The notes: generated from the sequence alone by a model not told the origin. A stretch of 64,000 nucleotides of DNA from an uncultured Hyphomicrobiales bacterium (GCA_964645005.1 CAZXYS010000006.1:4741-68740); one strand, 5' to 3'. Shown: positions 2,298 through 36,906, counted from the stretch's first letter. Made by a program: numbers and translations.

Positions 2298-3578
2298 ATG
2301 AAGAAAATAATCAAAAAAATAATGTCTTCGCTGGAAAAGAAATATACGAATTTCATTGAATTCGTGAAACCTTACTCCAAGACAATTTTTATAGACAGCA
2401 CACTTGCAACAATTCTGTGCTTTGCTATAATGTTCGTTTTCCTTAATTTATTTTCTTCAAAATACTTTGAACCGTTCAAAGAAAGTTTCCGTGATTTTCA
2501 GATTACTGATATAACTTATTCGGATTTGAGGGATGATATTAGTGTCCGGGCTGATCCGAATATAGTGCTGATAGACGTCTGGAGATTGAATAAACCGGGG
2601 CTGGCTCAACTGATAAAACGATTGAATGATAACAACCCGGCTGTTGTTGCGATAGATAAGATATTTACAAAAGGGGATAATAAGCTGAATGATCTGGTAT
2701 TAGCTGATGCCCTGAAAAACACCGACAACCTTGTAATGGCATACAGGCTTTCGAATAACTCAGAGGGGGCTAAGTATTATGATGAAATGATAACCAGCGA
2801 TAGCATGTTTATCCAAAATGCCTCTATGGGATATTCAAATCTGATGTTCGGGAAAAACAAGGAAATCTCAACAGTAAGAGAATTTGTACCTAAACATTCT
2901 TTTAAAGGTAAAGAATTATTCTCTTTTGGAGTTCAAACGGCAAAGAATTATAATCCTGCGGTAGTGGAAAATTTATTCAGCAGAAATAAAAACAGAGAAA
3001 TAATAAATTATCGTGCGGATTGGAAGAAATTTACTTTTCTCGAAGGAATCAAAGTCCTCAAGGAAGATGTAGACAGAAATGTTATTGAAGGAAAGATCTT
3101 AATCTTAGGTGATGTAGGCGCTTTCAGAGAATATGAACTCCTCGAGGAATTATATTTCACACCTCTTAACGAGAGAATAGCCGGCAGGACACTGCCGGAT
3201 ATGTCGGGCGTGGAAATACATGCTAATATTGTGTCAATGATAAAAACCGGTGATTATTATGGAGAAATGCCACTTTGGATAGGTTTTTTATTGGCTGTTA
3301 TTTTATGTTATGTAAATATGTGGATTTTTAGTTACATTTGCATTAAGAATAAAACATGGTTCGAGATCAACAGCTTGTTGATCTTTCTCTTGGAATCAGT
3401 AGCATTGTTATATCTTACGGTTCAGATTTTTAACAAATATCATTATCAATGTACTTTTACCATAGCTCTTTTCGCAGTAGCATTATCAGTTTTCATATAC
3501 CAAATTTACAATGAAACATTTAAACCATTTTATCAAAGACTTAGTAATAAATTAAAAAATTCAAAGGTGTCGACATGA
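2298..3578 (+). CDS. CHASE2 extracytoplasmic sensor domain membrane protein without cytoplasmic output domain
   Basis: N-terminal TM, ~300 aa extracytoplasmic domain with the CHASE2-typical GVEIHANIVSMI motif, three C-terminal TM helices and no kinase/cyclase domain. Paralog of 5735-6922. Stop overlaps the next start (ATGA at 3575-3578). Confidence 0.65.
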   Translation: MKKIIKKIMSSLEKKYTNFIEFVKPYSKTIFIDSTLATILCFAIMFVFLNLFSSKYFEPFKESFRDFQITDITYSDLRDDISVRADPNIVLIDVWRLNKPGLAQLIKRLNDNNPAVVAIDKIFTKGDNKLNDLVLADALKNTDNLVMAYRLSNNSEGAKYYDEMITSDSMFIQNASMGYSNLMFGKNKEISTVREFVPKHSFKGKELFSFGVQTAKNYNPAVVENLFSRNKNREIINYRADWKKFTFLEGIKVLKEDVDRNVIEGKILILGDVGAFREYELLEELYFTPLNERIAGRTLPDMSGVEIHANIVSMIKTGDYYGEMPLWIGFLLAVILCYVNMWIFSYICIKNKTWFEINSLLIFLLESVALLYLTVQIFNKYHYQCTFTIALFAVALSVFIYQIYNETFKPFYQRLSNKLKNSKVST

Positions 3579-4561
3579 AAAAATATTTAGTTTTATTTAT
3601 GACAATGTTGTTGACCGCAGCAATAAATATTTTCGCGGCTGAACCTGATTTTAAAGTGCTGGCTTTAAATGGTGAACTTCAAATTAGCAAATCCGGCGGA
3701 AGTTGGGAACCTATTAAATCAAATACGGTGCTGCATGAGAAAGACAAGGTAAAATTGGGAAATAAAGCTTACCTCGGTCTGGTACACTCGAGTGGTAGAA
3801 CAGTGGAATTAAACAAAGAAGGTGTTTTCACCTGCAGGGAATTGAAAAAAATTGCCAATAAAAAAGGCAGTGAATTAACAAAGCGATTAGCAAAGTATGT
3901 CATTGATGAAATCGGCGACGCTGATGATCTCATGGCAACAGATGATTATCATGAATATATGGATGTCACCGGGTCCGTAGAAAGAGGATTGAGCTTAAAT
4001 GAAATTGAAAATATGAAAAAGGAAGCCGATAAAGAGAAAGGTTTCATCCTTGAATCAGGCAGATATATCGTTATGATCTCTCCCAAAAAGACAAGTTTAA
4101 TTGATCCGGAAGCAAGTATTCAGTGGTATGGGATCAAAGGTATAGATGAATATCAAATAACTTTCTACGACAGATTCGAAAGAAAAATTCTATCTGACAC
4201 TATTCAGGATACCGTTTATAATCCGGATATGTCCGGGGATGGTTTTGAACCCAATAAATATTATTTCTATACGGTTGCTGCCGTGAACCATCCAAGTATA
4301 AGATCTGAAGAGTGTGCCTTCACTATTTTAAATGAAGAAGAGCGGGAAATGATTCGCCAGGAACTTCGAAAATTGGAAGAAGAACTGGGTGAAGAAAGAA
4401 CCCCCCTTGAAAATCTTATGATAGCAGCTTTTTATGAGGATCACAAGTTATTTAATAAAGCTGAAAAATATTACCGAAAAGTCGCAATGGAGAATCCTGA
4501 AGTGGATAAATTCCAGGATATCTATAAAGCTTTTAATTATAAAAAAAGTAAAGGATATTGA
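3575..4561 (+). CDS. FecR-like secreted protein with Fn3-like middle and TPR-like C-terminus
   Basis: Signal peptide (MKKYLVLFMTMLLTAAINIFAA). N-terminal region resembles the FecR fold (LALNGELQISKSGGSWEPIKSNTVLHEKDKVKLG...LVHSSGRTVEL). Shares a conserved core with 4610-5689 (KYVIDEIGDADDLM...DYHEYM...GSVER). Confidence 0.5.
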   Translation: MKKYLVLFMTMLLTAAINIFAAEPDFKVLALNGELQISKSGGSWEPIKSNTVLHEKDKVKLGNKAYLGLVHSSGRTVELNKEGVFTCRELKKIANKKGSELTKRLAKYVIDEIGDADDLMATDDYHEYMDVTGSVERGLSLNEIENMKKEADKEKGFILESGRYIVMISPKKTSLIDPEASIQWYGIKGIDEYQITFYDRFERKILSDTIQDTVYNPDMSGDGFEPNKYYFYTVAAVNHPSIRSEECAFTILNEEEREMIRQELRKLEEELGEERTPLENLMIAAFYEDHKLFNKAEKYYRKVAMENPEVDKFQDIYKAFNYKKSKGY

Positions 4562-4609
4562 TCTTTAAACGTAATAATCATATACAAGCAAAAAATATAC
4601 TAAATATTA

Positions 4610-5689
4610 ATGATGCGGGTAAATAAAATGGCTGCAAAATATTTAAAATTAACGATATTTCCGGCTGCAGCAATGGTTTTGTTGATGCTGTTTAACTTAA
4701 GTGATTTAAAAGCTGGGAGTTACGAATTCAGGGCAATTGCTGTGAACGGCGACGTCGATTACAAAACCGGAAGCAGTGGGAACTGGAAAACCCTGAAAGT
4801 CGGTACTGAACTTCAGAAGAGTTACAGTATAAGATTAAAAAGATCATCTTATGCAGGTCTTGTTCATATTTCCGGGAAAACGCGGGAACTTGAAAAGAAT
4901 GGATCATATTCGGTTTCTGAATTGTCAAAACAGGTTTCCGTAAAGGAAAGTGGTCTTAATAAACGATTTACCAAATACGTGATAGACGAAATAAGCGACG
5001 CCGATGATCTAATGAGTTATGGTGATTACCATGATGACATGGGAACTGTCGGTTCGGTGGAAAGAGCGATCGACGAGGACTTCGAAGTTTCCGAAAAAAT
5101 CGGGAAATTAGGGAAAATGGATGATGAGACAAAGTCCTCATTGCGTGATGCCGACAAATTAGTATCATTGAAGAAGGAAATGATCAATATTCGTTTTCCA
5201 AGAAGCAGTTATATTATTGATGAAAAAATAGCTTTTTCGTGGCGTTCACACCCTGAAGTAAAGGAATACAAGTTAGTTATAAAGGATAAGGACAATCATA
5301 CTGTTTTCAGTAAAAAACTCAGAGATACGGCTTTAGCTGTCAATGTTCAGGAAACAGGTATTCAGCCGGGGAAGAATTACTACTGGAAAGTGAAGTCTGA
5401 CAAAATATCATCTTCGGAATACTGTATTTACAGGCACAGTGAAGAAACTTCACCTCAATTATTTGCCGAACTAAAAGAAATGAAAAGTAGTTATGCTACG
5501 GATAGAAGCGCATTGAACAATATAATTATGGCGTCGTTTTACGATGAACACAACATTATGCAGCGAGCTCTGCAATGTTATCAACGCGCTATGAAGTTAT
5601 CCTCCAAAACTAAAGAATATCAGAAGCTATATTCTCTATATTTGGGGCGTATTGGCTTACGTGAAGAAGCAAGAAAATTTGCTCAATGA
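4610..5689 (+). CDS. FecR-like secreted protein, paralog of 3575-4561
   Basis: Signal peptide. KYVIDEISDADDLMSYGDYHDDMGTVGSVER block is shared with the upstream paralog. C-terminal TPR-like helix (MASFYDEHNIMQRALQCYQRAMKL). Confidence 0.5.
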   Translation: MMRVNKMAAKYLKLTIFPAAAMVLLMLFNLSDLKAGSYEFRAIAVNGDVDYKTGSSGNWKTLKVGTELQKSYSIRLKRSSYAGLVHISGKTRELEKNGSYSVSELSKQVSVKESGLNKRFTKYVIDEISDADDLMSYGDYHDDMGTVGSVERAIDEDFEVSEKIGKLGKMDDETKSSLRDADKLVSLKKEMINIRFPRSSYIIDEKIAFSWRSHPEVKEYKLVIKDKDNHTVFSKKLRDTALAVNVQETGIQPGKNYYWKVKSDKISSSEYCIYRHSEETSPQLFAELKEMKSSYATDRSALNNIIMASFYDEHNIMQRALQCYQRAMKLSSKTKEYQKLYSLYLGRIGLREEARKFAQ

Positions 5690-5734
5690 ACTTTATAATC
5701 ATAAATTTCAAAGGGATTTCTAGAATAAACGCTA

Positions 5735-6922
5735 ATGAAGTATATATTTTCATTAAATAACATTATAAGCACTTTATTTGTTTATCTGGTCCTGGCACTT
5801 TTACCGTATTTCTTTGAGATTGATTTCCTCAATCCCATTGAGAATACTCTGGAGTCATTCAGCATTACGGATATGTACTTCTCACAACTGCAAAATCATG
5901 ATGAGATTCCGGTTGATTCGAACATTGTACTTGTTAATATTGGTGATCTTAAGCGTAGAGGTATTGCCAAGCAAATTGAAATAATAAGCCGTTACGATCC
6001 CAAAGTCATTGGCATAGATGCATTTTTCAGAGACGAAAAAGAGCCCATGCAGGATGTTCCTTTAATAAATGCAATTAAAAAATCAGAAAAAATTGTCCTT
6101 GTTACAAAGATAGCCAATTATGATAAGTCCAAGAAAACACATGACACTGTAGAAACATCACATGATAAATTCACCCAATCCGCTTATCAAGGTTACGCAA
6201 ATTTCTACATACCTAAAGATGATTTCCGAACCGTTCGAAAGTTTTCACCCAAAGAAAATCTTCACGATACGCTGCAATATTCATTTGCGGTGGAAGTCGC
6301 CCGTAATTATGATTCCGCTGCAGTTGACAGACTTCTCGAAAGAGATAACGGACTTGAAATAATCAATTTTCGAAGAGGTTACGACAAGTATATTACACTC
6401 AGTACAAAGGATGTTTTCGTTAAAAGAAATGAACTGGATTTTATTAAAGATAAAATTGTGCTGTTGGGATTCATGGGACCGAATCTCATCACACCTACGG
6501 ACGGAGACATATTCTTCACCCCTATGAATGATAATTTTGTCGGCAAAAGCTATCCGGATATGTATGGTGTTGAAGTTCATGCCAATATCATTTCAATGAT
6601 TCTTGACGGCAAATATTTCGAAATGATTCCGGACTGGCTCTCTTTTACTTTAACAATCCTGCTGGTTTATTTCAATATGGCTTTTTTTTCATATTTAAGG
6701 GATAAACGTGAGGGACTATATGAACCAATAAGTATTATTGCGACTTTTGGAGAGTTGATACTTGTATTTCTTTTTATACTCTGGTTCTTTTATTTATTCG
6801 GAATAGAGATAAGAGCCAGCGGAGTGTTTTTCGCTATCATTCTTCTTAAGCAGATCTATGAATTATATAATGATTCGATCAAGCAAATAGCAATAAATTT
6901 TTTCAAGCGAAGATTTCAGTAG
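5735..6922 (+). CDS. CHASE2 sensor domain membrane protein, paralog of 2298-3578, no output domain
   Basis: GVEVHANIISMILDGKYFEMIPDWLSF motif is near-identical to the one in 2298-3578. Same architecture: N-terminal TM, extracytoplasmic domain, C-terminal TM bundle. Confidence 0.65.
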   Translation: MKYIFSLNNIISTLFVYLVLALLPYFFEIDFLNPIENTLESFSITDMYFSQLQNHDEIPVDSNIVLVNIGDLKRRGIAKQIEIISRYDPKVIGIDAFFRDEKEPMQDVPLINAIKKSEKIVLVTKIANYDKSKKTHDTVETSHDKFTQSAYQGYANFYIPKDDFRTVRKFSPKENLHDTLQYSFAVEVARNYDSAAVDRLLERDNGLEIINFRRGYDKYITLSTKDVFVKRNELDFIKDKIVLLGFMGPNLITPTDGDIFFTPMNDNFVGKSYPDMYGVEVHANIISMILDGKYFEMIPDWLSFTLTILLVYFNMAFFSYLRDKREGLYEPISIIATFGELILVFLFILWFFYLFGIEIRASGVFFAIILLKQIYELYNDSIKQIAINFFKRRFQ

Positions 6923-12800: not shown

Positions 12801-13287
12801 TCATAAGCTCTTTGCAGGCGTCATAAGCATCCACCGGTGAAGAATATTCCACCTTATATATTCTGCTTATACCGTGCTTGTCCGCCGATTTCAGATCGCC
12901 TTCTCCATATTTTGCGAATGGCTGGCGAATTTCCTTTATGTTAAGATCCTCGATCGAACTCTGCAATATCATCGAGCGAAAGCCTTTATCTTCCTTTGAT
13001 ATTTTATAGTATCCCTTAGTTTTTATATGGATAGTGTTTTCCTGATAATATTCCTTGTCAACTATAGGGATATTGTAGATTTTTGCAGGCTTGTATGTGT
13101 TTGGTCCTGTTTTTACTCCTGGTATTACTATCTTATAGGCAATCTTTTGCCCGTCGCCGGGAATATATTTCGGGGAATCGTTCTTTTTTCCCTGATAACT
13201 TAATGGTGAGAGTGAGAAGAGAGGGATTGTAAGAATAAATCCCATTAATACTGTCAAAGATATAAATATTCGTCTAAAGTCTTTCAT
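9835..13287 (-). CDS. Subtilisin-family (S8) serine peptidase with C-terminal BNR-like propeller and T9SS sorting domain
   Basis: Catalytic triad motifs GIVDSGTD (Asp), HGTHVAG (His), GTSMASPVVAG (Ser). Later Asp-box-like repeats (TTNGGNNWQ, STDGGKNWS, TTNGGKTWK, TDDMGESWT). C-terminus NSPNPAANSTKLNIYL...GVYYFRL matches a T9SS CTD. Confidence 0.85.
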   Translation of the reverse strand: MKDFRRIFISLTVLMGFILTIPLFSLSPLSYQGKKNDSPKYIPGDGQKIAYKIVIPGVKTGPNTYKPAKIYNIPIVDKEYYQENTIHIKTKGYYKISKEDKGFRSMILQSSIEDLNIKEIRQPFAKYGEGDLKSADKHGISRIYKVEYSSPVDAYDACKELMKNPEIVYAVPVFMRYPFEYTPNDPSQNRQWMTNKIELKKAWDISKGSKDILIGIVDSGTDTDHEDLKENLWTNPNEIPNNGKDDDENGYVDDVHGWDLARNDSIVKPNDANNNHGTHVAGCAAAVTDNSTGVLSPGFNCSFVPVKVSGDEGGRPAITHGYQGIIYAAELGADVINCSWGGPGSSPAEQDVINQAMDMGAVVVVAAGNDNFQNIDTNPQYPAAYDNVFTVGATANNDGVAGFSNIGNSVNIYAPGHNIYSTLMNNRYGNQSGTSMASPVVAGVMALLKSFKPNWSPIHLMKQIRSTSDDVLTSNPAYKPLFYGRINAFEALDYNGNNPGKNVPGIAITNVEFVGSDAINDYEKTSVNIEVTNYLANASNLKVKLSSVNNFVEFNKTEFNLGFLAKDKSKEFTLRMQLNEMNPWFRGQIKLTLTYESSDYVDYEILNLPILMTSNNRLSTVTKYPNNMNLRWTSAKLTDDNSVWAAGYALAYGYYTLPVYYRYNPSTNSSTNTLNGDPFFSIAPIDKNTAFAVSSKTSGGDARVLKTTNGGNNWQVNNIQGITNFINEIIFFDDREGLFLGDPIGADWGVARSTDGGKNWSRVDNIPPPLNDENGFVGSHFRLGTDVWFGTSKGRVYKSGNKGASWDESTVYNNGFILKLGFYDKNNGIAIYTESDHEGEQLAASTTNGGKTWKKNVFNFSDFALQPVHFFSLPRSDKFYVLCSGGEIYWTDDMGESWTPVLSEQSVGAQSGAVVVNPGFEVKVWEFDSWVSNFNFKYVPNDADQNIELLSDENVEFDTTNIGSKDLQNVEFENTGEIDVHFTELTIQPLEDTEENEFGFFLGKPDYVEPNQKGIVRLQFTPEKEGIRKAKLIVKTDVAGKNYEMNLSGVGIDPSSVPDRTMSGGVVMEQNSPNPAANSTKLNIYLPEPSKFSLEIYNAEGKFMKMVKHGLAGKGNLGIDVNTEDLAPGVYYFRLSAGDNVLTRSFVVSR

Positions 13288-13603
13288 GCTGTTAAACCCA
13301 TATTTTTTTTAAAAATATTTTTTTCAATATAATTTTGAACTTATCGACGTTATTGCCATAAATCCTATTTTATTATTATAAATAGGTTGTATTAAGTAAA
13401 ATGGCTCAGTTTTTTTCTAACTACTTTATTTAAATAAAAAAACTAATGTTATAATATTTAAAATTATGGTTTTGAGCCATGTATTATTAATGTAAAATTA
13501 TAAAATAACTTTTTTCAATGATTAAAACAATAGTAAGAAATACTAAATACAATTTTTGATGAAAACATTACTATAATCCATTTCAACATCAACAGAAATG
13601 ATT

Positions 13604-13611
13604 ATATTTGT
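13604..13611 (+). promoter_or_regulatory. Possible Bacteroidetes-type -7 element (TAnnTTTG) upstream of ugd
   Basis: tatatttg sits 61 nt upstream of the ugd ATG in a 380-bp AT-rich divergent intergenic region. No clear -33 TTG partner found. Confidence 0.2.
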
Positions 13612-13671
13612 ATCTGTTTAAAAGCGTAAGCATTAAAGAGCTTTTTTTCTTTACTTTACAGCGGGTTAATT

Positions 13672-15021
13672 ATGGCTTATAACATTGCAGTGATTGGAAC
13701 AGGATACGTAGGGCTTGTAACGGGAACTTGCTTTGCAGCAACGGGTAACAATGTATATTGTGTTGACATTGACGAAGAGAAAATTAAACTGCTTCGCGAA
13801 GGCAAAAGCCCTATTTACGAAATCGGCCTGGAGAGAATGATCGAAAGAAATTTGCGTGAAAAAAGACTGCATTTTACGCTCGATTTGAAACAGGCTGTGC
13901 TTAATTCAAAGCTCATATTTCTTTGTTTGCCTACGCCTCCGACAGAGGACGGCTCTGCTGATTTGCAGCATGTGCTGAAAGTCGCCGAAGATATAGCTGA
14001 AATAGCCAAAGAAAATCATGACCCAAACGGTAAAATAGTTGTAAATAAAAGTACTGTTCCAGTTGGAACATCTGAAAAGGTCAGGAATATATTCAAAGAG
14101 AAAGCGCCCAAAGCCAAGCTTGAGGCAGTCAGCAATCCGGAATTCCTTCGCGAGGGCTTTGCTGTGGAGGATGCTATGAAACCGGAACGAATCATTGTCG
14201 GAGCAGATAATGAACAAGTTGTTGAGATCATGCGCGAGCTCTATCAGCCTTTCGTTCGCAGCGGCAATCCGATCTATATAATGGATGAAAAGAGTGCAGA
14301 GATAACCAAGTATGCTGCGAATTCATTCCTCGCTGCGAAGATCTCTTTCATGAACGACCTTTCGGCTTATTGTGAAAATGTCGGAGCGGACATCGAGAAG
14401 ATACGTCTCGGTATTGGCTCGGACAGCCGGATTGGCAAGAGGTTTCTTTTTGCCGGCATAGGTTACGGCGGTTCGTGCTTTCCGAAGGATGTCCGTGCAC
14501 TGATACATTCCACTCAAGAAGCAGGCACTCCCGTTGAAATTGTTGAAGCGGCACACAGGGTGAATTCAAATCAGCTTACCCGCTTCCTTGGAAGAATAAA
14601 TAATAGATTCAACGGCGATCTTAAAGACCGCCGGATCGCTATCTGGGGACTTTCTTTCAAACCCAATACCGATGATACGCGTGAAGCACCTGCTTTCAGA
14701 ATAATCGACTGGCTGCTGGACAAGAACGCCGACGTAAAGGTTTACGACCAGGAAGCCATGGATAATACCCGCAAGCATTTTGGCAGTAAGATAATTTATG
14801 CTGAGGATATGTATGATTGTCTCGATGCGGCTGAAGCACTAATAATTGCTACGGAATGGAATGTCTTCCGCAATCCTTATTTTAACAAAATGAAAGAGCT
14901 TTTGAAGAATCCACTGATCTTTGATGGAAGAAATCTCTTCGATCCGATAGAAATGGCTGAAGAAGGCTTCGAGTACTACTGTATCGGAAGGAAAACTATT
15001 AAACCGGGAAACAAGAAATAA
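13672..15021 (+). CDS. ugd: UDP-glucose 6-dehydrogenase
   Basis: N-terminal NAD Rossmann IAVIGTGYVGLVTG. Catalytic-Cys region GIGYGGSCFPKDV. Length 449 aa. Family-typical C-terminal UDP-binding domain. Confidence 0.85.
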   Translation: MAYNIAVIGTGYVGLVTGTCFAATGNNVYCVDIDEEKIKLLREGKSPIYEIGLERMIERNLREKRLHFTLDLKQAVLNSKLIFLCLPTPPTEDGSADLQHVLKVAEDIAEIAKENHDPNGKIVVNKSTVPVGTSEKVRNIFKEKAPKAKLEAVSNPEFLREGFAVEDAMKPERIIVGADNEQVVEIMRELYQPFVRSGNPIYIMDEKSAEITKYAANSFLAAKISFMNDLSAYCENVGADIEKIRLGIGSDSRIGKRFLFAGIGYGGSCFPKDVRALIHSTQEAGTPVEIVEAAHRVNSNQLTRFLGRINNRFNGDLKDRRIAIWGLSFKPNTDDTREAPAFRIIDWLLDKNADVKVYDQEAMDNTRKHFGSKIIYAEDMYDCLDAAEALIIATEWNVFRNPYFNKMKELLKNPLIFDGRNLFDPIEMAEEGFEYYCIGRKTIKPGNKK

Positions 15022-15065
15022 CATAAGATTTTAGATTTAACCTATTTATTTCATTAGAAAAAATG

Positions 15066-15146
15066 AAAATACACTTAAGTGTCATTGCGAGCAAAGTTGA
15101 GCGAAGCGAAATCCTGCTTTAGCAGGGCAGGAATCTGATAAATACT
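15066..15146. repeat. Short palindromic intergenic repeat (family 2, 'gtcattgcgagcgaagcgaa' type)
   Basis: gtcattgcgagcaaagttgagcgaagcgaaatcctgctttagcagggcaggaatctgat. Related copies at 52985-53105 and 54812-54900. Contains a cctgc/gcagg hairpin. Probably doubles as the ugd terminator. Confidence 0.6.
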
Positions 15147-15373
15147 GGCTGCCTCGCAACGTTAAAAAAGATTTTATTCGGAATGTCGATCTTATGGATC
15201 ACCCTCAATGAAGCCGAAGGCTAAGGGGTGGTTCTGCTAAATTGATAAAATTAATCTGGTTATATAGTAGTTCTATTGTTTAAATTCAATTTTAGTATGC
15301 AAAAATTTAATAAAACACTCAAAAAAGCTATTTTTGTAGGTTTAAATATTGAACGATCAAATTCGGAAAGTAC

Positions 15374-16249
15374 ATGGAGCATATATATAATATTTTCAGG
15401 GGGATGGCAATAGGTATAGCCAATGTTATCCCCGGGGTTTCGGGCGGAACAATGGCTGTTATTCTCGGCATTTACGAAAGGCTGACCGAAGCTGTCGGGA
15501 ATTTCGTTATAGACAAAAAAAACAGGCTCAGGAATATCATTTTACTGGTGACTATAGGAATTGGCGCGGTTATAGGTGTGATACTCTTCGCCAGATTTTT
15601 CTCATTTCTGTTGACAACGGAACTGACTGAACAGGCGACATATCTGTTTTTCGTCGGCTTGATTATAGGCTCAATTCCTTTCATAATCAAGCTTCACAGC
15701 GATATGAAGATTAACGGCACAAGATTGTTTTTAGCTATTATAGCGATAGGATTGATCTTGCTGACAACTTTCTTCGAAGGTTCCGGCGACGTGACAAGTA
15801 ACCTCGAAGTGAAAGACACCTGGCTGGGCTTTATGAAAATAACGGACATTGATCTGCTCTATGGCTTTTGGCTGTCAGTTTGCGGCTTGCTGGGCGCGGG
15901 CTCAATGGTGCTGCCGGGCTTTTCCGGCTCTGCGCTGCTGATAAGTCTTGGCGAGTATAATAATGTTCTCTTTTTCGTAGATCAGAGAATGATTGTCCCT
16001 GTAGGTTTTTTAGTTCTGGGAGTTATACCCGGTATAATTATATTCGCTAAAGTTATAAGTATTTTTCTCAAAAAATTCCCTTCCGAGACCTATTATTTTA
16101 TTATCGGACTATTGATAGCGTCTAATTATCAGATCTACACTGAAATCAAAGATATACTGGATTATTCTTTTTTCGCAATAATTTTGAGTATATTTACCTT
16201 TGTGGCGGGATTCGCTCTTGCGTATTTTTCGAGTAAAATCAACAACTAA
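15374..16249 (+). CDS. DUF368 family membrane protein (PopT-like putative undecaprenyl-phosphate translocase)
   Basis: Internal two-fold repeat with hallmark motifs IPGVSGGTMAVILGIYERL and LPGFSGSALLISLGEY. Polytopic membrane protein. Confidence 0.75.
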   Translation: MEHIYNIFRGMAIGIANVIPGVSGGTMAVILGIYERLTEAVGNFVIDKKNRLRNIILLVTIGIGAVIGVILFARFFSFLLTTELTEQATYLFFVGLIIGSIPFIIKLHSDMKINGTRLFLAIIAIGLILLTTFFEGSGDVTSNLEVKDTWLGFMKITDIDLLYGFWLSVCGLLGAGSMVLPGFSGSALLISLGEYNNVLFFVDQRMIVPVGFLVLGVIPGIIIFAKVISIFLKKFPSETYYFIIGLLIASNYQIYTEIKDILDYSFFAIILSIFTFVAGFALAYFSSKINN

Positions 16250-16252
16250 AAA

Positions 16253-17422
16253 ATGGCTGGGAGCAAGAAAATACTGTACGTTTGGAAAAGCCCTTATCCG
16301 TGGGATGTTCGGATTGAGAAGATCTGCACTTCTCTGGCGGAAAACGGCTGTGAAGTGCATATCTTAGCTCTTCGTGAAGAACGGCAGCCGCAGACGGAGA
16401 AGATCGGCAATTTGAACATCATACGCACCAAGTTCATAAAAGGCAGCAAGAAAAGCATCCCTGTTTCAATGAATCCCTTCTGGAAAACTGAAATCTCAAA
16501 AGCTGCAAGAGAGATACAGGCGGACCTGATAATAGTCCGTGAAATTATGCTCGCAGAACTCTGCTCAAATATTGCTCGTCAGTTGGATATACCGGTGATT
16601 ATGGATATGGCGGAGCACTATCCGGCGGCGATGAAGGATTTTAATAAATACTATAAAAATCTGATCAATAGAGTCTCTGTTCATTATTTGAAACTGCCTG
16701 ATAAAATCGAGAAAAAAAGTACAATAAGAATGGATGGCATTTTATCCGTAAGCAAGGAAAACAGCCTTAGATTAATAAAAAATAACTATTATCCCCCAAA
16801 AAATATAATTGAAGTGCACAATACTCCCAAGCTCGATTGGTTTAGTGATATTCGAAAAGGCTGCCAGAAGTCTCCGGTCGTGTATGCTTATCACGGTCAT
16901 TTCAGTAATGTGAGAAATCTTGATATTTTAATTAAATCTTTTATAATTGCAGCTAAGACCGATAAAAATATTAGATTAGTAATGGCTGGAACAGGTGAGA
17001 ATTTTAAAGAGATTTCAGATATCAGGGAAAATTCCGATGTTAAAGACAGAATTACTCTCACGGGTTTTTATAATCACAAAGATACAAAGAAGTTATATTC
17101 TGAGATGGATATAGGGATTCTTCCATATAAAAATAATGAGTTTATAAATAATATAATCTCTAATAAATTATTTGATTACATGGCTTGCGGAAAACCGGTG
17201 ATTGTTTCAGAGGCTTATCCGATGATACGAATAATGGAAGAAACAAATGCCGGTATAATAACAGACTGCAATAATCCCGATACTTTAGCTCAAAAAATGT
17301 TAGAGATCAAAAATATGGATCTTGAAAGCATGTCCCATAACGGTATAAAAGCTGCAGAGACAAAATATAATTGGACAGTAGATGAGCAAAAAATGATCGA
17401 TTTCTTTAAGAGGTATATATAA
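16253..17422 (+). CDS. Glycosyltransferase family 4 (group 1)
   Basis: C-terminal GT-B donor-binding signature (FINNIISNKLFDYMACGKPVIVSE). 389 aa. Stop overlaps the next start by 1 nt. Confidence 0.7.
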   Translation: MAGSKKILYVWKSPYPWDVRIEKICTSLAENGCEVHILALREERQPQTEKIGNLNIIRTKFIKGSKKSIPVSMNPFWKTEISKAAREIQADLIIVREIMLAELCSNIARQLDIPVIMDMAEHYPAAMKDFNKYYKNLINRVSVHYLKLPDKIEKKSTIRMDGILSVSKENSLRLIKNNYYPPKNIIEVHNTPKLDWFSDIRKGCQKSPVVYAYHGHFSNVRNLDILIKSFIIAAKTDKNIRLVMAGTGENFKEISDIRENSDVKDRITLTGFYNHKDTKKLYSEMDIGILPYKNNEFINNIISNKLFDYMACGKPVIVSEAYPMIRIMEETNAGIITDCNNPDTLAQKMLEIKNMDLESMSHNGIKAAETKYNWTVDEQKMIDFFKRYI

Positions 17423-17910
17423 TGGCGCAATTTGTATCAAATACTGTTCAGGTGCATATTTACGCATTTGATCATGATGATCAGGTATTACATCTGCTGC
17501 TGCAACGTGCTGACGATAATCCGCTTTACCCGTTGTTATGGCAGGCATTGACCGGAACTATTGAAACGGGTGAGACTGCCCTGCAAACCTCAGTCAGAGA
17601 GATCAAAGAAGAGACCTCGCTGTCACCAATAAAAATGTGGACTGTACCTTACATTACTTCATTTTTCGATCCCTATTCTGACAGAGTGAATTTTTCACCT
17701 GTTTTCGGTGCTCTGGTTGAATATCACGAAAACATCATACTTTCAGGAGAACATAAGGACTTTATCTGGTTAAAATATGAAGAAGCTTTAAAAAAACCGG
17801 AGCTGCCAACTCATGTAGAAGGGACAAAAGTTTTTCAAAAATATATTATTGAATCAAAAGGACATAGTAAATTTGAGATTCCCGAAATATATTTCAAACA
17901 ATTGATCTAA
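17422..17910 (+). CDS. NUDIX hydrolase
   Basis: Nudix box GTIETGETALQTSVREIKEETSL (Gx5Ex7REUxEExGU pattern). Confidence 0.75.
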   Translation: MAQFVSNTVQVHIYAFDHDDQVLHLLLQRADDNPLYPLLWQALTGTIETGETALQTSVREIKEETSLSPIKMWTVPYITSFFDPYSDRVNFSPVFGALVEYHENIILSGEHKDFIWLKYEEALKKPELPTHVEGTKVFQKYIIESKGHSKFEIPEIYFKQLI

Positions 17911-17913
17911 ATT

Positions 17914-18777
17914 ATGGATGATTACAAAATAGCAGCGGTTTTAATAACTCACAACAGACTGAATTTCTTAAAAGAGCTTGTTAATGGATTGAAAAATCAG
18001 ACGCGAAAGCCAGACAAGATTTTCGTTATAGATAATGCCAGCACCGACGGTACCGAAGAATGGCTTGTAAATCAGGAAGGTTTGACTGTTATCAGACAGG
18101 ATAATTTGGGCAGTTCGGGAGGTCAATATACTGGGATTAAAAAAGCTTATGAGCAGAATTATGATTGGATCTGGGTGATGGATGATGATGTCGAACCTGA
18201 ACCGGATTGCCTTGAAAAACTGCTCAACGTTAATAACGATAAAGCTTTGGTAAGAGCACCTTTAAGATATACACCCGAGAATAAGCCTTTTTTGTATGAA
18301 GCCATAAGCTATAATCTGACAAATCCTTTTAAGAGTTTTTGGATAGAGATTGTCTCAGAAGAGCATCTCAATTTGGAAGAAATTCCAGCCGCCGGAATTA
18401 CCTTCGAAGGACCATTAATCCATAAAGAAGTTGTCAAAAAGGTTGGCTTGCCGGAAAAGAAATTTTTTATATTCGCTGATGATACGGAATTTTTTATCCG
18501 GGTGATGAAGCAAAATTATAACTCAATAATTGTTAAAAATGCTGTCTTAAGAAGAAAGTTAACTTTTGATGCTTACCCTAAGAATTTCACATGGAAGCAC
18601 TATTACACAATAAGAAATCTGACCGCTATAGATGTATTGCATGGCAGCGCTGCAGTGCGCTTATTGCGCCCTGTCGGTTATCTAATCAAGTGGTTGTTCA
18701 GATGCCGCAAACCGAAAGATATAGCTGTTGTCTTCAAGGCTTTTATAGATGGTTATTTCTATAAGTCTGATAATTGA
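17914..18777 (+). CDS. Glycosyltransferase family 2
   Basis: N-terminal AAVLITHNRLNFLKELVNGL ... IDNASTDGT (GT-A fold with DxD-like WVMDDDVEP). Confidence 0.75.
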   Translation: MDDYKIAAVLITHNRLNFLKELVNGLKNQTRKPDKIFVIDNASTDGTEEWLVNQEGLTVIRQDNLGSSGGQYTGIKKAYEQNYDWIWVMDDDVEPEPDCLEKLLNVNNDKALVRAPLRYTPENKPFLYEAISYNLTNPFKSFWIEIVSEEHLNLEEIPAAGITFEGPLIHKEVVKKVGLPEKKFFIFADDTEFFIRVMKQNYNSIIVKNAVLRRKLTFDAYPKNFTWKHYYTIRNLTAIDVLHGSAAVRLLRPVGYLIKWLFRCRKPKDIAVVFKAFIDGYFYKSDN

Positions 18778-18962
18778 TTATCACTTTTTTTATTCAAAAT
18801 CAAAAATTTTTGCGACAAAAACAAATTTGATGTGTTATTCAGATAAATTTTTATGTTAATTTGTTTTTCTGCATTTGAATATAAATGTTAAGAAAAATTT
18901 CAGAAATATTAACATAATCTTTATATTCGTAAAATTTTTTCAAAAATAAGAGGATTTATTTA

Positions 18963-21476
18963 ATGATGATCACAAAAAAATTAAATTGCTTACTCACTTC
19001 ATTAATATTAATTTTAATTTTCAGTTCAAACGCCTTCTCGGAAAACAAAAATGTAGAGCAATTCCAGTATCTTTCTCCCGTACCTGATGCTGTTTTTGTT
19101 TCACCATTTAATGATCTGATCATTAGATATGGTGAGGAGCTTGATGAATCAACCGTTAGCGCGGATCTTATCGAAGTGACTGCTTCGATTAGCGGCGTCC
19201 ACGATGGAGAAGTTATTTTACTGGAAGATAAGAAAACTATGCTCTTCCAGTTTTTCAACAGTTTCGAATATGATGATACCGTAACAGTATCATTGTTGCC
19301 GGGAATAAAGACTTCAGGCGGAGCTCCCGTACCGGAAATGACTTATACTTATTATGTATCAAGTTTCAGTTATTACTATGGGACACAAGCACCACCCGAT
19401 GATCCGACTGATAATGATATCCCTGATATTATGAAAGCAGGGGATGCAGGTAAAGTCAAAAATGACGAATTACTTTTTGACAAAACGGAATACCTCGAGA
19501 GCAGGCATCTCCCAGATGATTTTCCTCCAATGAAAGTAGATCGATACGGAGAACCCAACCCTGGATATTTGATGCTTACTCCTTTTGCCTGGAAAGATTC
19601 AGTTCTGGGTAATTATATCGTAATGATGGATAATTGGGGAACTCCTGTTTTTTATAAAAGCTATCCTGATTCCGTATTTAGCGCGGAATTCAAAATCCAT
19701 CCTAACGGTTATGTAACTTTTTTTGATGCAACTAAAAGGCACTTCGCTATTTATGACAGTTCCTTCAACAAAATCGGACACATAAAACATAGGAACGGTT
19801 ACCTGAACGATTTTCATGAACTTCTTGTCACTGAAGATAACCATAAATGGGTAATGACCTATGATCACCAGTGGGTGGATTTGACCGATTCACTCGAAGG
19901 GGGAATGCCAAACACCGAATTAGTTGGACTGATTATCCAGGAGCTTGATGAAAATGACAATGTTATCTTCCAATGGAGAAGCTGGGATAACTTTTCTATC
20001 TTTGATGCACATTTGCCAGGTGTGAGATATGATACCAATGCCTCAACTATTGATTATGTCCACGGCAATGCTATAGAAATTGAATCTGACACTGCTGTTC
20101 TTATATCCAGCAGAAATCTATCGGAGATAACAAAAATAGACCGTAGAACCGGGGAGATTATCTGGCGATTCGGTGGAAAGAACAATAGTTTCGATATTCA
20201 AAATGATGACAGAGTTCTTTCCTGGCAGCATGATTGCCGGCGATGGTCCAATGGCAATCTCTCTGCATTTGATAACGGTGTGCACCATGATAATCCTTAC
20301 TCCGGTGCTGTGGAATACAAAATTGATGAAGAAAATATGACGGCAGAATTGATATACAGACATATAATCGATGAAGATCATTTAGCTCGTGTTACGGGAA
20401 GTTCCAGGCACCTTGATAATGGCAATTTACTTGTAAGCTGGGGTTCTGCAAGATTTCCGAATATATCTGAGTATGATTCTCTTGGCAACAGAGTCCTGGA
20501 TGTTTCGTATCCTTCAATAAATTATAGAACTTATAGATATCCCTGGAAGACTACGCTATTCGGAACTGATATCGAGATGATTGATTACCAGAGTTTTGTT
20601 ATCGGCGATCCGGTTAAAAATAATATTACTTTGAGTACTGATTCATCGGATAACATTGAAATTAGCAGCTATCATACTAATTATGATGCTTTCAGTATAA
20701 CTGAAGATATCCCTCTGGATATTCCCGGAGAAGGTTCAACAGAAATTGAACTTATTTTTGATCCGCAGGAAAATGGATATTATGAAGATGTTCTAACCCT
20801 TAACCATGACTATGAGACATCTAGAATTGCCCGGCAGGTACATTTGAAAGCTATTGTTTTCAATAGTATGGATCCGGTAAGTTTAAGCTTCGAACCTCAG
20901 GATAGCTCCGAAAATGTACCGGTTGATAAGAAAATAGTGATTAATTTCTCCGAAGCTGTCCAAACCGAAGAAGGAAATAAATTAACACAATTAAATGCAG
21001 CCGGCTTTATTATGCTTGAAGACAGCGCCACCGGCGAAACTGTGCCTTTCTCCGCAACTATTTCCGGATTGAAAAAGACAATTACTGTTAAGCCTGACAA
21101 TCCTTTTGATAGTGCTTCAACTTATTATGTTGGTATCAAAGATGGATTAATGGATTACAGAGATGAAGCAGTAGTAGTTGACAGCGCTAAGTTTTCCACA
21201 CCGGAATATCCTTCCTCAATTTATGAGGAACCTGTCTCGGAAATAAAGCTTTATCCGAATCCGGCAAATGACCAAATCTATCTGGAAAATGAAAGTAATC
21301 TGCTCATTGAAAAGGTAGACATAGTGAATTCCTTTGGCAAAAAGGTCAGGCAATTACAAAATATAACCGGCACTCTCAATAAGATCGAAATGTCAGGTCA
21401 ATCTCCAGGTTTGTATTTTGTAAGGATTTTCACATTCGACGGCAAAATCTACAGATATAAATTTATCAAAAGGTGA
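18963..21476 (+). CDS. Arylsulfotransferase (ASST)-like beta-propeller protein with Ig-like domains and T9SS C-terminal sorting domain
   Basis: Central region IDRRTGEIIWRFGGKNNSFDIQNDDRVLSWQHDCRRWSNGNLSAFDNGVHH resembles the ASST family (PF05935) propeller. Signal peptide. C-terminal KLYPNPANDQIYLEN...GLYFVRIF matches a T9SS CTD. Confidence 0.55.
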   Translation: MMITKKLNCLLTSLILILIFSSNAFSENKNVEQFQYLSPVPDAVFVSPFNDLIIRYGEELDESTVSADLIEVTASISGVHDGEVILLEDKKTMLFQFFNSFEYDDTVTVSLLPGIKTSGGAPVPEMTYTYYVSSFSYYYGTQAPPDDPTDNDIPDIMKAGDAGKVKNDELLFDKTEYLESRHLPDDFPPMKVDRYGEPNPGYLMLTPFAWKDSVLGNYIVMMDNWGTPVFYKSYPDSVFSAEFKIHPNGYVTFFDATKRHFAIYDSSFNKIGHIKHRNGYLNDFHELLVTEDNHKWVMTYDHQWVDLTDSLEGGMPNTELVGLIIQELDENDNVIFQWRSWDNFSIFDAHLPGVRYDTNASTIDYVHGNAIEIESDTAVLISSRNLSEITKIDRRTGEIIWRFGGKNNSFDIQNDDRVLSWQHDCRRWSNGNLSAFDNGVHHDNPYSGAVEYKIDEENMTAELIYRHIIDEDHLARVTGSSRHLDNGNLLVSWGSARFPNISEYDSLGNRVLDVSYPSINYRTYRYPWKTTLFGTDIEMIDYQSFVIGDPVKNNITLSTDSSDNIEISSYHTNYDAFSITEDIPLDIPGEGSTEIELIFDPQENGYYEDVLTLNHDYETSRIARQVHLKAIVFNSMDPVSLSFEPQDSSENVPVDKKIVINFSEAVQTEEGNKLTQLNAAGFIMLEDSATGETVPFSATISGLKKTITVKPDNPFDSASTYYVGIKDGLMDYRDEAVVVDSAKFSTPEYPSSIYEEPVSEIKLYPNPANDQIYLENESNLLIEKVDIVNSFGKKVRQLQNITGTLNKIEMSGQSPGLYFVRIFTFDGKIYRYKFIKR

Positions 21477-32538: not shown

Positions 32539-32630
32539 TTCTCTACCCTTATTTTAATAATAACCTATATCTGTTACACCGTATCAAATCGCCATAATTA
32601 TAGTAATATTATTTTTCCTATCCCTTAATG

Positions 32631-36188: not shown

Positions 36189-36210
36189 GCATGTGTTATT
36201 TTTTATTTAG

Positions 36211-36885
36211 TTAATGCAACTCAAAGCTGTACTTATAATAAAAAGCCAGAATTCTCTCAATATCCGGCTCCTCAATATTGAATTCATTTTCATAGCGGTA
36301 GAAGATATCCAATTCATGACCATTGTCCAGATTAATCTCCACACCGACAGATAATTTGTATTTTAGAAAGCGGTCACCTTCATCCCAATTGAATCTGTAA
36401 AAGGCTTCGCTGCTCAAATACGGATTTACCGGACCTTTGAGATTGTAGTCTATCGCGAACTTATTGCGCCAGAAAACTCGATTATTATCGTCCACGCGAT
36501 ATTCTTTATCATAGCGGGAGCGAAGCTGAAATTCGAATCTATCTATTTCATATTCAAGATAGATTGTAGGTCGCAATTCATGCTGCTTTTTGTCAGTATA
36601 AAGATTATACCTGTAAGCTAAAGCCAGATCAACATATTTATGCAGATCGTATTGAAAACCATAGGATGCAATGCTGTTCTTCATATTTTTGCCGCTGTTT
36701 CGCAATCTTATCTCCTGTTCATATTCAAAATCAAGATCTTTGGATAGTTCAAATTCAATTTGCATTCCCATCCAGAATTCATTTTCATTATCCTGCGACT
36801 GTGCCGTAACAATACTGAAAATTATTAAACAACTGCAAAAAAATACTTTTCTTAAATATATATTCCTGTAATTTATAACATACAT
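36211..36885 (-). CDS. Putative outer-membrane beta-barrel protein (DUF2490-like)
   Basis: Signal peptide, then alternating hydrophobic/aromatic beta-strand-like segments rich in Tyr/Phe/Arg/Glu (YRYNLY, YLEYEIDRFEFQLRSRYDKEYRV). 21-22 bp gaps to both neighbours in the operon. Confidence 0.35.
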   Translation of the reverse strand: MYVINYRNIYLRKVFFCSCLIIFSIVTAQSQDNENEFWMGMQIEFELSKDLDFEYEQEIRLRNSGKNMKNSIASYGFQYDLHKYVDLALAYRYNLYTDKKQHELRPTIYLEYEIDRFEFQLRSRYDKEYRVDDNNRVFWRNKFAIDYNLKGPVNPYLSSEAFYRFNWDEGDRFLKYKLSVGVEINLDNGHELDIFYRYENEFNIEEPDIERILAFYYKYSFELH

Positions 36886-36906
36886 TATAAAATACGCTTT
36901 CTGATT

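What the first reader, a model, noticed from the sequence alone, without database searches (positions are those of the whole stretch)
13672..18777. Compact glycoconjugate cluster: ugd - DUF368 (PopT-like Und-P translocase) - GT4 - Nudix - GT2
UDP-glucose dehydrogenase (13672-15021) is followed by a tight operon (15374-18777, overlapping stops and starts). The operon holds a DUF368 protein (a family recently shown to recycle or flip undecaprenyl phosphate), two glycosyltransferases and a Nudix hydrolase. A Nudix enzyme embedded between glycosyltransferases is likely to act on a nucleotide-sugar or on a diphosphate-lipid carrier. Together with the PAP2 + ArnT-like pair at 50496-52899, this points to a UDP-GlcA-derived lipid-linked glycan or lipid A modification route that uses its own carrier-lipid translocase.
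Basis: partly seen in the sequence, partly recalled or inferred. Interest (0 to 1): 0.55.

Follow-up and report, generated by a model that had tools for sequence, protein, structure and literature searches.

The report
Carrier-lipid flippase, glycosyltransferase and Nudix operon
This is a real four-gene operon (a DUF368/PopT-like lipid-carrier flippase, two sugar-adding enzymes and a small Nudix hydrolase); its flippase-GT4-Nudix core recurs in at least 18 loci of Kapabacteria/Ignavibacteria-type bacteria, with a DedA flippase often replacing DUF368, and it most likely serves a surface-sugar pathway rather than the proposed glucuronic-acid or lipid A route.

Summary
All five ORFs lie at the stated coordinates, and every family call is confirmed: Ugd, DUF368/PF04018, GT4, Nudix and GT2. 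The last four genes are tightly coupled, with a 3-nt gap, a 1-nt overlap and another 3-nt gap.

The genes are clustered in relatives, not scattered. Across about 50 related loci from Kapabacteria/Ignavibacteria-type MAGs, the gene directly upstream of the GT4 is a polyprenyl-phosphate flippase in 23 of 45 readable cases: DUF368 in 10 and DedA in 13, with both present in tandem in 3 loci. The triad flippase-GT4-Nudix is contiguous in 18 loci. It stays together when it moves to new genomic sites.

In most relatives the module is the tail of a long operon: Wza-Wzi-GT2-PGT-PpgS-like GT2-GT2/PGT fusion-accA.

Ugd is never adjacent to the module in relatives, and here it sits behind a 352-nt gap with its own promoter-like motif. 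The PAP2 + GT-C pair is real but lies 32 kb away and is never linked to the module. The Nudix groups with ApnA/NTP/NudB-type enzymes, not with nucleotide-sugar hydrolases, and its substrate remains unknown.

I rate this a new variant of a known kind, of moderate interest.

The parts
13672..15021 (+). UDP-glucose/GDP-mannose dehydrogenase family gene (Ugd-like). It is a neighbour, not a conserved part of the module.
   Evidence: It matches the three Pfam domains. TIGR03026 scores 440.8 bits against a cut-off of 189.8, and TuaD scores 498.7 against 700. It is never adjacent to the module in relatives.
15022..15373 (+). Intergenic spacer of 352 nt. It holds a repeat-like element (about 15060-15250) and a Bacteroidota-type -7 motif, TATTTTTG, at 15329-15336. 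It is the likely start of the operon's own transcript.
   Evidence: Sequence read. The motif scan found 91 sites against 70.7 expected. Three independent assemblies break at 15155. There is no Rfam hit, and the RNA fold is not significant (z -1.17).
15374..16249 (+). DUF368 / PopT-like polytopic membrane protein, a putative polyprenyl-phosphate flippase.
   Evidence: PF04018 scores 133.6 bits. The NCBIfam PopT model aligns full length at 123.7 bits, below the 400-bit cut-off. About 8 hydrophobic segments are present. 3493 homologues were found.
16253..17422 (+). Soluble GT4 (GT-B) glycosyltransferase, the anchor gene of the conserved module.
   Evidence: PF00534 and PF13439 match. The AF2 model has pLDDT 93.7 and a GT-B fold, with MshA/BshA/SPS/PglA/PimA as structural neighbours. 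A flippase gene lies directly upstream in 23 of 45 readable loci.
17422..17910 (+). Small single-domain Nudix hydrolase of a module-specific subfamily with a C-terminal LPSH(K/R)EG motif.
17914..18777 (+). Soluble GT2 (GT-A) glycosyltransferase, GlfT1/rhamnosyltransferase-like, with a DDD motif.
   Evidence: PF00535 scores 83.4 bits. The best NCBIfam matches are GlfT1 (83.3 bits, cut-off 330) and the rhamnosyltransferase model (51.5 bits). The best PDB matches are galactofuranosyltransferases. No TM segment is present. A GalE-like SDR epimerase replaces it in L093 and L094.

Best explanation
Genes 15374-18777 form one operon. It is a relocated copy of a module conserved in Kapabacteria/Ignavibacteria-type Bacteroidota: a polyprenyl-phosphate flippase (DUF368 here; DedA, or both, in relatives), then GT4, then a small Nudix, then GT2 (or an SDR epimerase).

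In most relatives this module is the 3' end of a long surface-polysaccharide operon. That operon carries Wza, Wzi, a PgaC-like GT2, a Bac_transf phosphoglycosyltransferase, a PpgS/AglJ-like polyprenyl-P-sugar synthase, a GT2/PGT fusion and accA.

Proposed mechanism (inferred). The soluble GT4 and GT2 add sugars from nucleotide-sugars to a polyprenyl-(di)phosphate-linked glycan on the cytoplasmic face. After export and transfer, the freed undecaprenyl phosphate is returned to the inner leaflet by the DUF368 protein, so the pathway keeps its own carrier supply. The Nudix is a co-translated accessory pyrophosphatase with a nucleotide-type substrate, controlling or cleaning a nucleotide-linked metabolite of the pathway.

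Shown here: the family memberships, the folds, the translational coupling, the conserved synteny and the interchange of DedA with DUF368. Inferred: all substrates, the direction of flipping and the role of the Nudix. Ugd next door may supply UDP-GlcA in this organism, but it is not part of the conserved unit.
For: - Family assignments are confirmed.
- The gene junctions are tight.
- The same cassette is found at 48-60% DUF368 identity in L004/L005, L006, L007, L093 and L094.
- The GT4-anchored metagenome scan shows DUF368 (10 loci) or DedA (13 loci) directly upstream of the GT4. The triad flippase-GT4-Nudix is contiguous in 18 loci, and Nudix or GT2 lies directly downstream in 28 of 45 loci.
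- The unit stays intact in unrelated surroundings: the window, L094, L110, L127 and L175.
- In the GT4 tree, DUF368-linked and DedA-linked members are interleaved.
- The upstream operon in relatives is annotated by Pfam/NCBIfam as Wza, Wzi, PGT and PpgS-like.
- A standalone DUF368 relative lies two genes from BacA/UppP in L091, which fits a carrier-cycle role.
- Distant GT4 relatives sit beside AsnB-like genes, as in PEP-CTERM EPS loci.
- Published precedent exists: DUF368 in archaeal agl clusters, and DedA/UptA in the B. subtilis LTA-glycosylation regulon (10.1101/2022.02.03.479048).
Against: - No biochemical data exist for any of the four proteins.
- The window itself has no PGT, Wzx/Wzy, Wza, accA or DedA, so the pathway context is borrowed from relatives.
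- The top structural neighbours of the GT4 (MshA, BshA, sucrose-phosphate synthase) use small soluble acceptors. Lipid-acceptor enzymes (PglA, PimA, WaaG) score equally or slightly lower.
- In some loci GT4-GT2 sits among plain housekeeping genes such as prs, rplY, gmk and sucD.
- The DUF368 protein scores far below the PopT equivalog cut-off (123.7 against 400 bits).
- Cassette-linked DUF368s are not a distinct clade from standalone ones (52% identity without a cassette, 48% with one). The flippase may simply be the cell's general one.
- The Nudix is absent from the module in 7 or more loci where GT4 is followed directly by GT2.
Confidence: 0.55

Rival explanations
1. Glycolipid or small-glycoside route. 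The GT4 (with PimA/PIG-A/MshA/BshA-like logic) glycosylates a membrane lipid head group or a small phosphorylated acceptor. The DedA/DUF368 protein then moves that product, rather than free undecaprenyl phosphate, across the membrane. The Nudix and the GT2 or epimerase tailor the product or its precursor.
For: - Foldseek ranks MshA, BshA and sucrose-phosphate synthase first (TM 0.75-0.79), with PimA among the hits.
- Weak NCBIfam hits point to GlcN-PG synthase and MGlcDAG synthase.
- The minimal triad stands alone, without any PGT or polysaccharide genes, in L175, L094 and the window.
- GT4-GT2 also occurs among housekeeping genes.
Against: - Both flippase families have been shown experimentally only to handle polyprenyl phosphates (PMC9876793; 10.1101/2022.02.03.479048).
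- The commonest context is a PGT/Wza/Wzi operon.
- Foldseek ranking of GT-B enzymes depends strongly on the domain-opening angle, and the differences here are small.
Confidence: 0.2
2. Conserved synteny without a shared pathway. The flippase is the cell's general Und-P recycler for peptidoglycan. The Nudix is a housecleaning enzyme (NudB-, ApnA- or RppH-like). Both simply ride in an old envelope operon together with accA.
For: - accA, an unrelated fatty-acid gene, is embedded in the same operon.
- Wider FCB homologues of the Nudix sit in a different conserved array, with a PfkB kinase and an IF-2B/MtnA-type isomerase.
- The Nudix is closest to NudB in sequence (E 1.6e-15, against 2.3e-7 for the next NCBIfam model).
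- Cassette-linked and standalone DUF368 proteins are not phylogenetically separate.
Against: - The triad remains contiguous and translationally coupled after relocation to at least five unrelated genomic sites.
- The module's Nudix is a distinct subfamily with its own invariant C-terminal LPSH motif. It was found only next to module genes. All five Nudix-anchored loci of this type (L010-L013, L090) have DedA, GT4, GT2 or accA adjacent, whereas the roughly 13 general-type loci have none of them directly adjacent (in L014 a DedA gene lies about 750 nt upstream).
Confidence: 0.15
3. A UDP-GlcA-derived, lipid-linked glycan or lipid A modification route uses Ugd, the cassette and the PAP2 + ArnT-like pair at 50496-52899.
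For: - Ugd is adjacent on the same strand.
- The GT-C (PMT_2) and PAP2 genes are real and would release polyprenyl phosphate outside the membrane.
- In L094 an LmtA-like lipid A methyltransferase homologue lies directly upstream of DUF368.
- Relatives carry a PpgS-like polyprenyl-P-sugar synthase in the same operon.
Against: - No Ugd, PAP2 or GT-C homologue occurs in any of the 174 fetched loci.
- Ugd is separated by 352 nt that hold a promoter-type motif and a repeat element.
- The pair is 32 kb away, on the other strand, with unrelated genes in between.
- The cassette GT2 is not of the ArnC/GtrB type.
- No ArnA/ArnB/ArnD-type genes are present in the window.
Confidence: 0.1

Closest known systems
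PopT / DUF368 undecaprenyl-phosphate translocases (S. aureus PopT, V. cholerae VCA0040)
   Same: The same Pfam family (PF04018). The match to the NCBIfam PopT model runs full length. The protein is polytopic.
   Different: The score is far below the equivalog cut-off (123.7 against 400 bits). Here the gene is the first gene of a glycosyltransferase/Nudix operon, whereas the characterised bacterial members are described as standalone genes (PMC9876793; one search found no operon context).
DUF368 genes in archaeal N-glycosylation (agl/aglB) clusters, and DedA/UptA co-regulated with csbB-yfhO in B. subtilis (Roney and Rudner, 10.1101/2022.02.03.479048)
   Same: A carrier-lipid flippase gene is embedded in a glycan pathway operon. 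Both flippase families appear in that role.
   Different: This is a bacterial FCB lineage. The partners are a GT4, a Nudix and a GT2 rather than an oligosaccharyltransferase or a GT-C. DedA and DUF368 alternate or coexist in one and the same slot.
E. coli colanic acid cluster with the Nudix WcaH/Gmm (GDP-mannose mannosyl hydrolase) among glycosyltransferases
   Same: A Nudix gene sits between glycosyltransferase genes of a surface polysaccharide pathway. (The colanic acid context is from my own knowledge; GDPMH as a Nudix enzyme is from PMC7729866.)
E. coli NudB (dihydroneopterin triphosphate diphosphatase)
   Different: The score is below the equivalog cut-off (56.9 against 103 bits). The C-terminal motif is LPSH(K/R)EG instead of SWSNRQA. 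No locus shows a folate gene context.
PEP-CTERM/XrtA exopolysaccharide GT4 (TIGR04063 stp3) and GlfT1/WbbL-type GT2 enzymes
   Same: TIGR04063 is the best NCBIfam match for the GT4 (70 bits, full length). Distant GT4 relatives are followed by AsnB-like genes, as in those loci. The GT2 best matches GlfT1 and rhamnosyltransferases, which act on polyprenyl-PP-linked primers (the acceptor type is from my own knowledge).
   Different: All scores are far below the curated cut-offs (70 against 442, and 83 against 330). No exosortase or PEP-CTERM genes and no glf gene are seen.

Membership tests
DUF368 / PopT polyprenyl-phosphate transporter | Match to Pfam PF04018 above the gathering score | tested here: met
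   133.6 bits against a cut-off of 26; residues 13-256.
DUF368 / PopT polyprenyl-phosphate transporter | NCBIfam PopT (NF052563) or Vibrio-type (NF052564) equivalog cut-off | tested here: not met
   123.7 and 93.5 bits against a cut-off of 400. The alignment is full length (4-288 of the protein to 5-276 of 277 model positions).
DUF368 / PopT polyprenyl-phosphate transporter | Polytopic membrane protein | tested here: met
   About 8 hydrophobic 19-residue segments with Kyte-Doolittle score of 1.6 or more.
DUF368 / PopT polyprenyl-phosphate transporter | Undecaprenyl-phosphate translocation activity | not testable with these tools
   This needs complementation and MX2401 or amphomycin assays. 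No solved structure is available for comparison.
CAZy GT4 (retaining GT-B) | Glycos_transf_1 C-terminal domain, Glyco_transf_4 N-terminal domain and a GT-B fold | tested here: met
   PF00534 scores 76.4 bits and PF13439 scores 32.2 bits. The AF2 model has pLDDT 93.7, and its neighbours are all GT4 enzymes: MshA, BshA, SPS, PimA, PglA and WaaG.
CAZy GT4 (retaining GT-B) | EX7E motif | tested here: inconclusive
   Read by eye from alignment A6. The second acidic position is an invariant Asp (D308, in the stretch DYMACGKP). The first position (residue 300) is not conserved.
BshA / MshA (low-molecular-weight thiol GT4) | Equivalog score | tested here: not met
   BshA TIGR03999 scores 40.1 bits against 273.7. 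MshA scores 25.1 bits against 462.5.
Nudix hydrolase superfamily | Nudix box GX5EX7REUXEEXGU with the catalytic REx2EE | tested here: met
   PF00293 scores 53.9 bits. The box reads G45-TIETG-E51-TALQTSV-R59-E60-I-K-E63-E64-T-S-L. Ser replaces the last Gly in the window only; relatives have Gly. The Nudix fold is predicted with pLDDT 94.2.
NudB (dihydroneopterin triphosphate diphosphatase) | NCBIfam NF006961 equivalog cut-off | tested here: not met
   56.9 bits against a cut-off of 103. The C-terminal motif differs.
Nucleotide-sugar Nudix hydrolases (Gmm/WcaH, ADPRase, NudF, UDP-X) | Specific sequence or closest-fold similarity | tested here: not met
CAZy GT2 (inverting GT-A) | Glycos_transf_2 domain with a DXD motif | tested here: met
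   PF00535 scores 83.4 bits. The motif MDDDVEP is visible in the translation.
Polyprenyl-phosphate sugar synthases (ArnC / GtrB / DPM1 / PpgS type GT2) | Match to those models, usually with C-terminal TM helices | tested here: not met
   There is no ArnC/PpgS/AglJ hit apart from AglJ at 20.8 bits. No TM segment is present. By contrast, the 235-aa GT2 of L093 does match AglJ, PpgS and ArnC.
UDP-glucose 6-dehydrogenase | Nucleotide-sugar dehydrogenase family model, and the TuaD equivalog | tested here: inconclusive
   The family model TIGR03026 is met (440.8 bits against 189.8). The TuaD equivalog is not met (498.7 bits against 700).
Arn-type lipid A modification pathway | ArnA/B/C/D plus ArnT acting together, and conserved linkage with the module | tested here: not met
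   Only a PMT_2 GT-C and a PAP2 gene are present, 32 kb away. No homologue of them or of Ugd occurs in the 174 related loci.

The most novel reading that the evidence does not exclude
The module-specific Nudix (LPSH subfamily) is a cytoplasmic pyrophosphatase for polyprenyl diphosphates. Its substrate would be newly made Und-PP, or stalled Und-PP-sugar intermediates. It would work side by side with the DedA/DUF368 flippase to regenerate undecaprenyl phosphate on the inner leaflet. That would supply the missing cytoplasmic arm of the carrier-lipid cycle, because all known Und-PP phosphatases face outward.
Probability: 0.08. Interest if true: 0.85.

Novelty: new variant of a known kind. Interest (0 to 1): 0.42.

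Why it matters
Carrier-lipid flippases of the DedA and DUF368 families were identified only in 2022-23. How they are dedicated to particular glycan pathways is still largely unknown.

This module gives a natural experiment. Two unrelated flippase families occupy the same operon slot, directly upstream of one conserved GT4, across a whole bacterial lineage. That is independent genomic support for their functional equivalence, and for the existence of pathway-linked carrier recycling in Gram-negative FCB bacteria.

The module also defines a small Nudix subfamily that is strictly tied to a flippase and glycosyltransferases. Its substrate is unknown and could be tested cheaply in vitro. If that substrate turned out to be a lipid diphosphate, it would bear on how Und-PP is dephosphorylated on the cytoplasmic side. 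If it turned out to be an ordinary nucleotide, the module would be a routine polysaccharide operon with an accessory housecleaning enzyme.

Tried and rejected
- An Rfam scan of 13000-19200 at E up to 1 found nothing. RNA folding of the intergenic element was not significant (z -1.17).
- The sigma-70 promoter and terminator scan was uninformative: 26 sites against 19.8 expected.
- I looked for Nudix fusion proteins as Rosetta-stone evidence, using a profile against 1.84 billion representatives. The top 150 hits are all single-domain proteins.
- The word-based homologue search for the Nudix found only 8 proteins, so I used a profile and locus scans instead.
- A PDB sequence search for DUF368 found no solved relative.
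The organism is inferred only from its relatives, which are Kapabacteria, Kapaibacterium and Ignavibacteria MAGs.
- I considered BshA/MshA-type thiol synthesis for the GT4 and rejected membership on equivalog scores.
- I considered a pterin-glycoside route (NudB-like enzyme plus GTs). No folate or pterin genes occur in any locus, so I dropped it.
- I considered T9SS cargo-anchoring glycan, because of the flanking CTD proteins. CTD proteins are so common here (at least 6 in the window) that adjacency carries no weight.
- Literature searches for Nudix + undecaprenyl and for DedA + Nudix found no relevant precedent.

Full report
**Observation.** Pfam confirms each family:
- Ugd matches all three UDPG_MGDP_dh domains.
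- The 291-aa protein matches PF04018 (VCA0040-like undecaprenyl-phosphate translocase-like) at 133.6 bits.
- The 389-aa protein matches Glycos_transf_1 and Glyco_transf_4.
- The 162-aa protein matches NUDIX.
- The 287-aa protein matches Glycos_transf_2.

NCBIfam places the proteins near, but below, the equivalog cut-offs: TuaD 498.7 against 700, PopT 123.7 against 400, NudB 56.9 against 103 and GlfT1 83.3 against 330. The four downstream genes are joined by a 3-nt gap, a 1-nt overlap (TAATG) and another 3-nt gap. The DUF368 protein has about eight hydrophobic segments, and the other three proteins have none.

**Boundaries in the window.** Ugd is separated from DUF368 by 352 nt. That spacer carries a repeat-like element. 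Three independent assemblies of the same organism all break at window position 15155, inside the element. The spacer has no Rfam match and no significant RNA fold.

A TAnnTTTG motif is the -7 element of Bacteroidota promoters (from my own knowledge). One copy lies 38-45 nt upstream of the DUF368 start codon, and another lies 62-69 nt upstream of ugd. The motif occurs 91 times in the window against 70.7 expected. By my own reading of the hit list against the ORF list, it sits upstream of about nine of sixteen + strand unit starts.

The flanking genes are unrelated: T9SS cargo proteins and dxs. The window contains no accA, DedA, phosphoglycosyltransferase, Wza or Wzi gene.

**Conservation, anchored on DUF368.** Homologues with 55-60% identity lie in the same cassette.
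- L004/L005: GT2/PGT fusion-accA-DUF368-GT4-Nudix-GT2.
- L006: the same, up to the Nudix.
- L093: Wza-Wzi-GT2-PGT-GT2-GT2/PGT-accA-DedA-DUF368-GT4-Nudix-SDR epimerase.
- L094: LmtA-like methyltransferase, then DUF368-GT4-Nudix-epimerase.
- L007, a Kapabacteria MAG at 48% identity: accA-DedA-DUF368-GT4-Nudix-GT2.

Other DUF368 genes at 46-52% identity stand alone. One exception sits two genes from BacA/UppP.

**Conservation, anchored on the Nudix.** I scanned GTDB species genomes with a Nudix profile, then annotated the loci by tblastn and ORF calling. This gave L010 (accA-Nudix-GT2), L011 and L012 (accA-DedA-Nudix) and L013 (accA-DedA-GT4, then an opposite-strand kinase, then Nudix-GT2). The closest Nudix relative, at 58% identity, forms a bare Nudix-GT2 pair (L090).

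More distant homologues (35-43% identity) come from Chlorobiota, Marinimicrobia and other Bacteroidota. They lie in a different conserved array, with a roughly 1155-aa protein that matches no Pfam family, a PfkB kinase and an IF-2B/MtnA-type isomerase. Their C-terminal motif is WxGQR, like the SWSNRQ of E. coli NudB. The module-linked subfamily has LPSH(K/R)EG instead.

**Conservation, anchored on the GT4.** A metagenome scan returned 80 loci. Together with the earlier loci, 52 GT4 genes were classified.
- Directly upstream: DedA in 13 loci, DUF368 in 10, accA in 7, another gene in 15, and a contig end in 7.
- DedA and DUF368 occur in tandem in 3 loci.
- Directly downstream: Nudix-GT2 in 14 loci, GT2 alone in 7, Nudix-epimerase in 2, and GT2-Nudix in 1.
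- The triad flippase-GT4-Nudix is contiguous in 18 loci. One is a complete 4.49-Mb genome, where DedA-GT4-Nudix stands by itself (L175).

In a neighbour-joining tree of the GT4 proteins, the DUF368-linked and DedA-linked members are interleaved. This fits an ancestral tandem followed by differential loss, or repeated swaps. Distant GT4 relatives (30-33% identity) form a separate clade followed by asparagine-synthase-like genes, as in PEP-CTERM exopolysaccharide loci. In a few loci GT4-GT2 sits among housekeeping genes.

**Claims that fail.**
- No Ugd, PAP2 or GT-C homologue occurs in any of the 174 loci held, about 1.95 Mb in total. The ugd link and the link to the PAP2 + PMT_2 pair at 50496-52899 (real) therefore have no comparative support.
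- The cassette GT2 is GlfT1/rhamnosyltransferase-like and soluble. It is not an ArnC/GtrB/PpgS-type polyprenyl-phosphate sugar synthase.

**The Nudix.**
- Single-sequence and profile searches put it with NudB, Ap4A hydrolases and NudI.
- A confident AF2 model (pLDDT 94.2) has generic small-Nudix neighbours. By Foldseek these are the NrtR Nudix domain, MutT1, NudB and Ap4A hydrolases.
- Nucleotide-sugar hydrolases rank lower: NudF 14.3, ADPRase 14.2, UDP-X diphosphatase 13.3 and Gmm 13.1.
- A profile search of 1.84 billion representatives found 84 proteins at E of 1e-30 or better, and no fusion proteins among the best 150.
- NudB is reported to hydrolyse IPP, DMAPP, GPP and FPP (PMC6058358). 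This keeps a lipid-diphosphate substrate conceivable, but no paper connects a Nudix with undecaprenyl diphosphate or with DedA.

**The GT4.** The AF2 model (pLDDT 93.7) is a GT-B fold. Its best Foldseek matches are MshA, BshA and sucrose-phosphate synthase (TM 0.75-0.79), followed by PglA (0.75), PimA (0.70) and WaaG (0.69). This does not discriminate between soluble and lipid acceptors.

**Interpretation.** The best-supported reading is a lineage-specific surface-glycan module that carries its own polyprenyl-phosphate flippase.
- This is analogous to DUF368 in archaeal agl clusters and to UptA in the B. subtilis LTA-glycosylation regulon.
- What is new is the bacterial FCB setting, the alternation of DedA and DUF368 in one slot, and a dedicated Nudix subfamily.
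- Substrates and the role of the Nudix are inferred, not shown.
- The most novel reading not excluded is that the Nudix is a cytoplasmic polyprenyl-diphosphate pyrophosphatase. I give it about 8%.

**Verdict.** I rate this a new variant of a known kind, with moderate interest (0.42).

Noticed in passing
window 15060-15250 (also 53085-53110, - strand): A repeat-like intergenic element lies between ugd and DUF368. Three independent Logan assemblies of the same organism all start at window position 15155, inside the element, which suggests a multi-copy sequence and possibly the rearrangement junction that placed the cassette next to ugd. The core CATTGCGAGC recurs at 53094 (-). There is no Rfam hit, and the fold z-score is -1.17.
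   Followed up: partly
window 29035-38143 (- strand): Two tandem proteins of about 1170 aa each combine CotH kinase, lamin-tail and chitobiase-C domains with a T9SS C-terminal sorting domain. They are followed by DUF2490, DUF4956 and VTC-domain genes, an unexplained and possibly polyphosphate-related cluster.
   Followed up: no
window 50496-52899 (- strand): A PAP2 phosphatase and a 515-aa GT-C (PMT_2/ArnT-like) glycosyltransferase form a co-oriented pair 67 nt apart. This is a separate polyprenyl-P-sugar-dependent periplasmic glycosylation unit with no conserved link to the cassette.
   Followed up: partly
L093 1-9346; L007 1-6358; L098, L133, L139-L141: In relatives, accA (acetyl-CoA carboxylase alpha subunit) is embedded in the polysaccharide operon. 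In L093 its start overlaps the 3' end of a 650-aa gene that fuses a GT2 domain to the N-terminal part of a phosphoglycosyltransferase.
   Followed up: partly
L014 3423-3890; L019, L022, L023, L028: The wider FCB Nudix family (C-terminal WxGQR motif) has its own conserved array: a roughly 1155-aa protein with no Pfam hit, the Nudix, a PfkB kinase and an IF-2B/MtnA-type isomerase. This suggests a ribose-phosphate or nucleoside salvage role. In L014 a DedA gene also lies about 750 nt upstream.
   Followed up: partly
L094 9222-9848: A homologue of the Leptospira lipid A 1-phosphate methyltransferase LmtA (220 bits against a cut-off of 325) sits directly upstream of DUF368-GT4-Nudix-epimerase. This is the only hint of a lipid A connection.
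   Followed up: no
L110 3488-4114; L155 1713-2339: A YceI-like protein follows GT4-GT2 in two loci (Pfam hit for the L110 protein). The family is described as polyisoprenoid-binding (from my own knowledge).
   Followed up: no
window 2298-6922: Two CHASE2-domain proteins are interleaved with two ORFs that match no Pfam family.
   Followed up: no
whole window: The motif TAnnTTTG occurs 91 times against 70.7 expected. By my reading against the ORF list, it lies upstream of about nine of sixteen + strand unit starts. Together with the many T9SS C-terminal domain proteins, this fits a Bacteroidota-type (Kapabacteria/Ignavibacteria-like) organism with sigma-ABfr-type promoters.
   Followed up: partly
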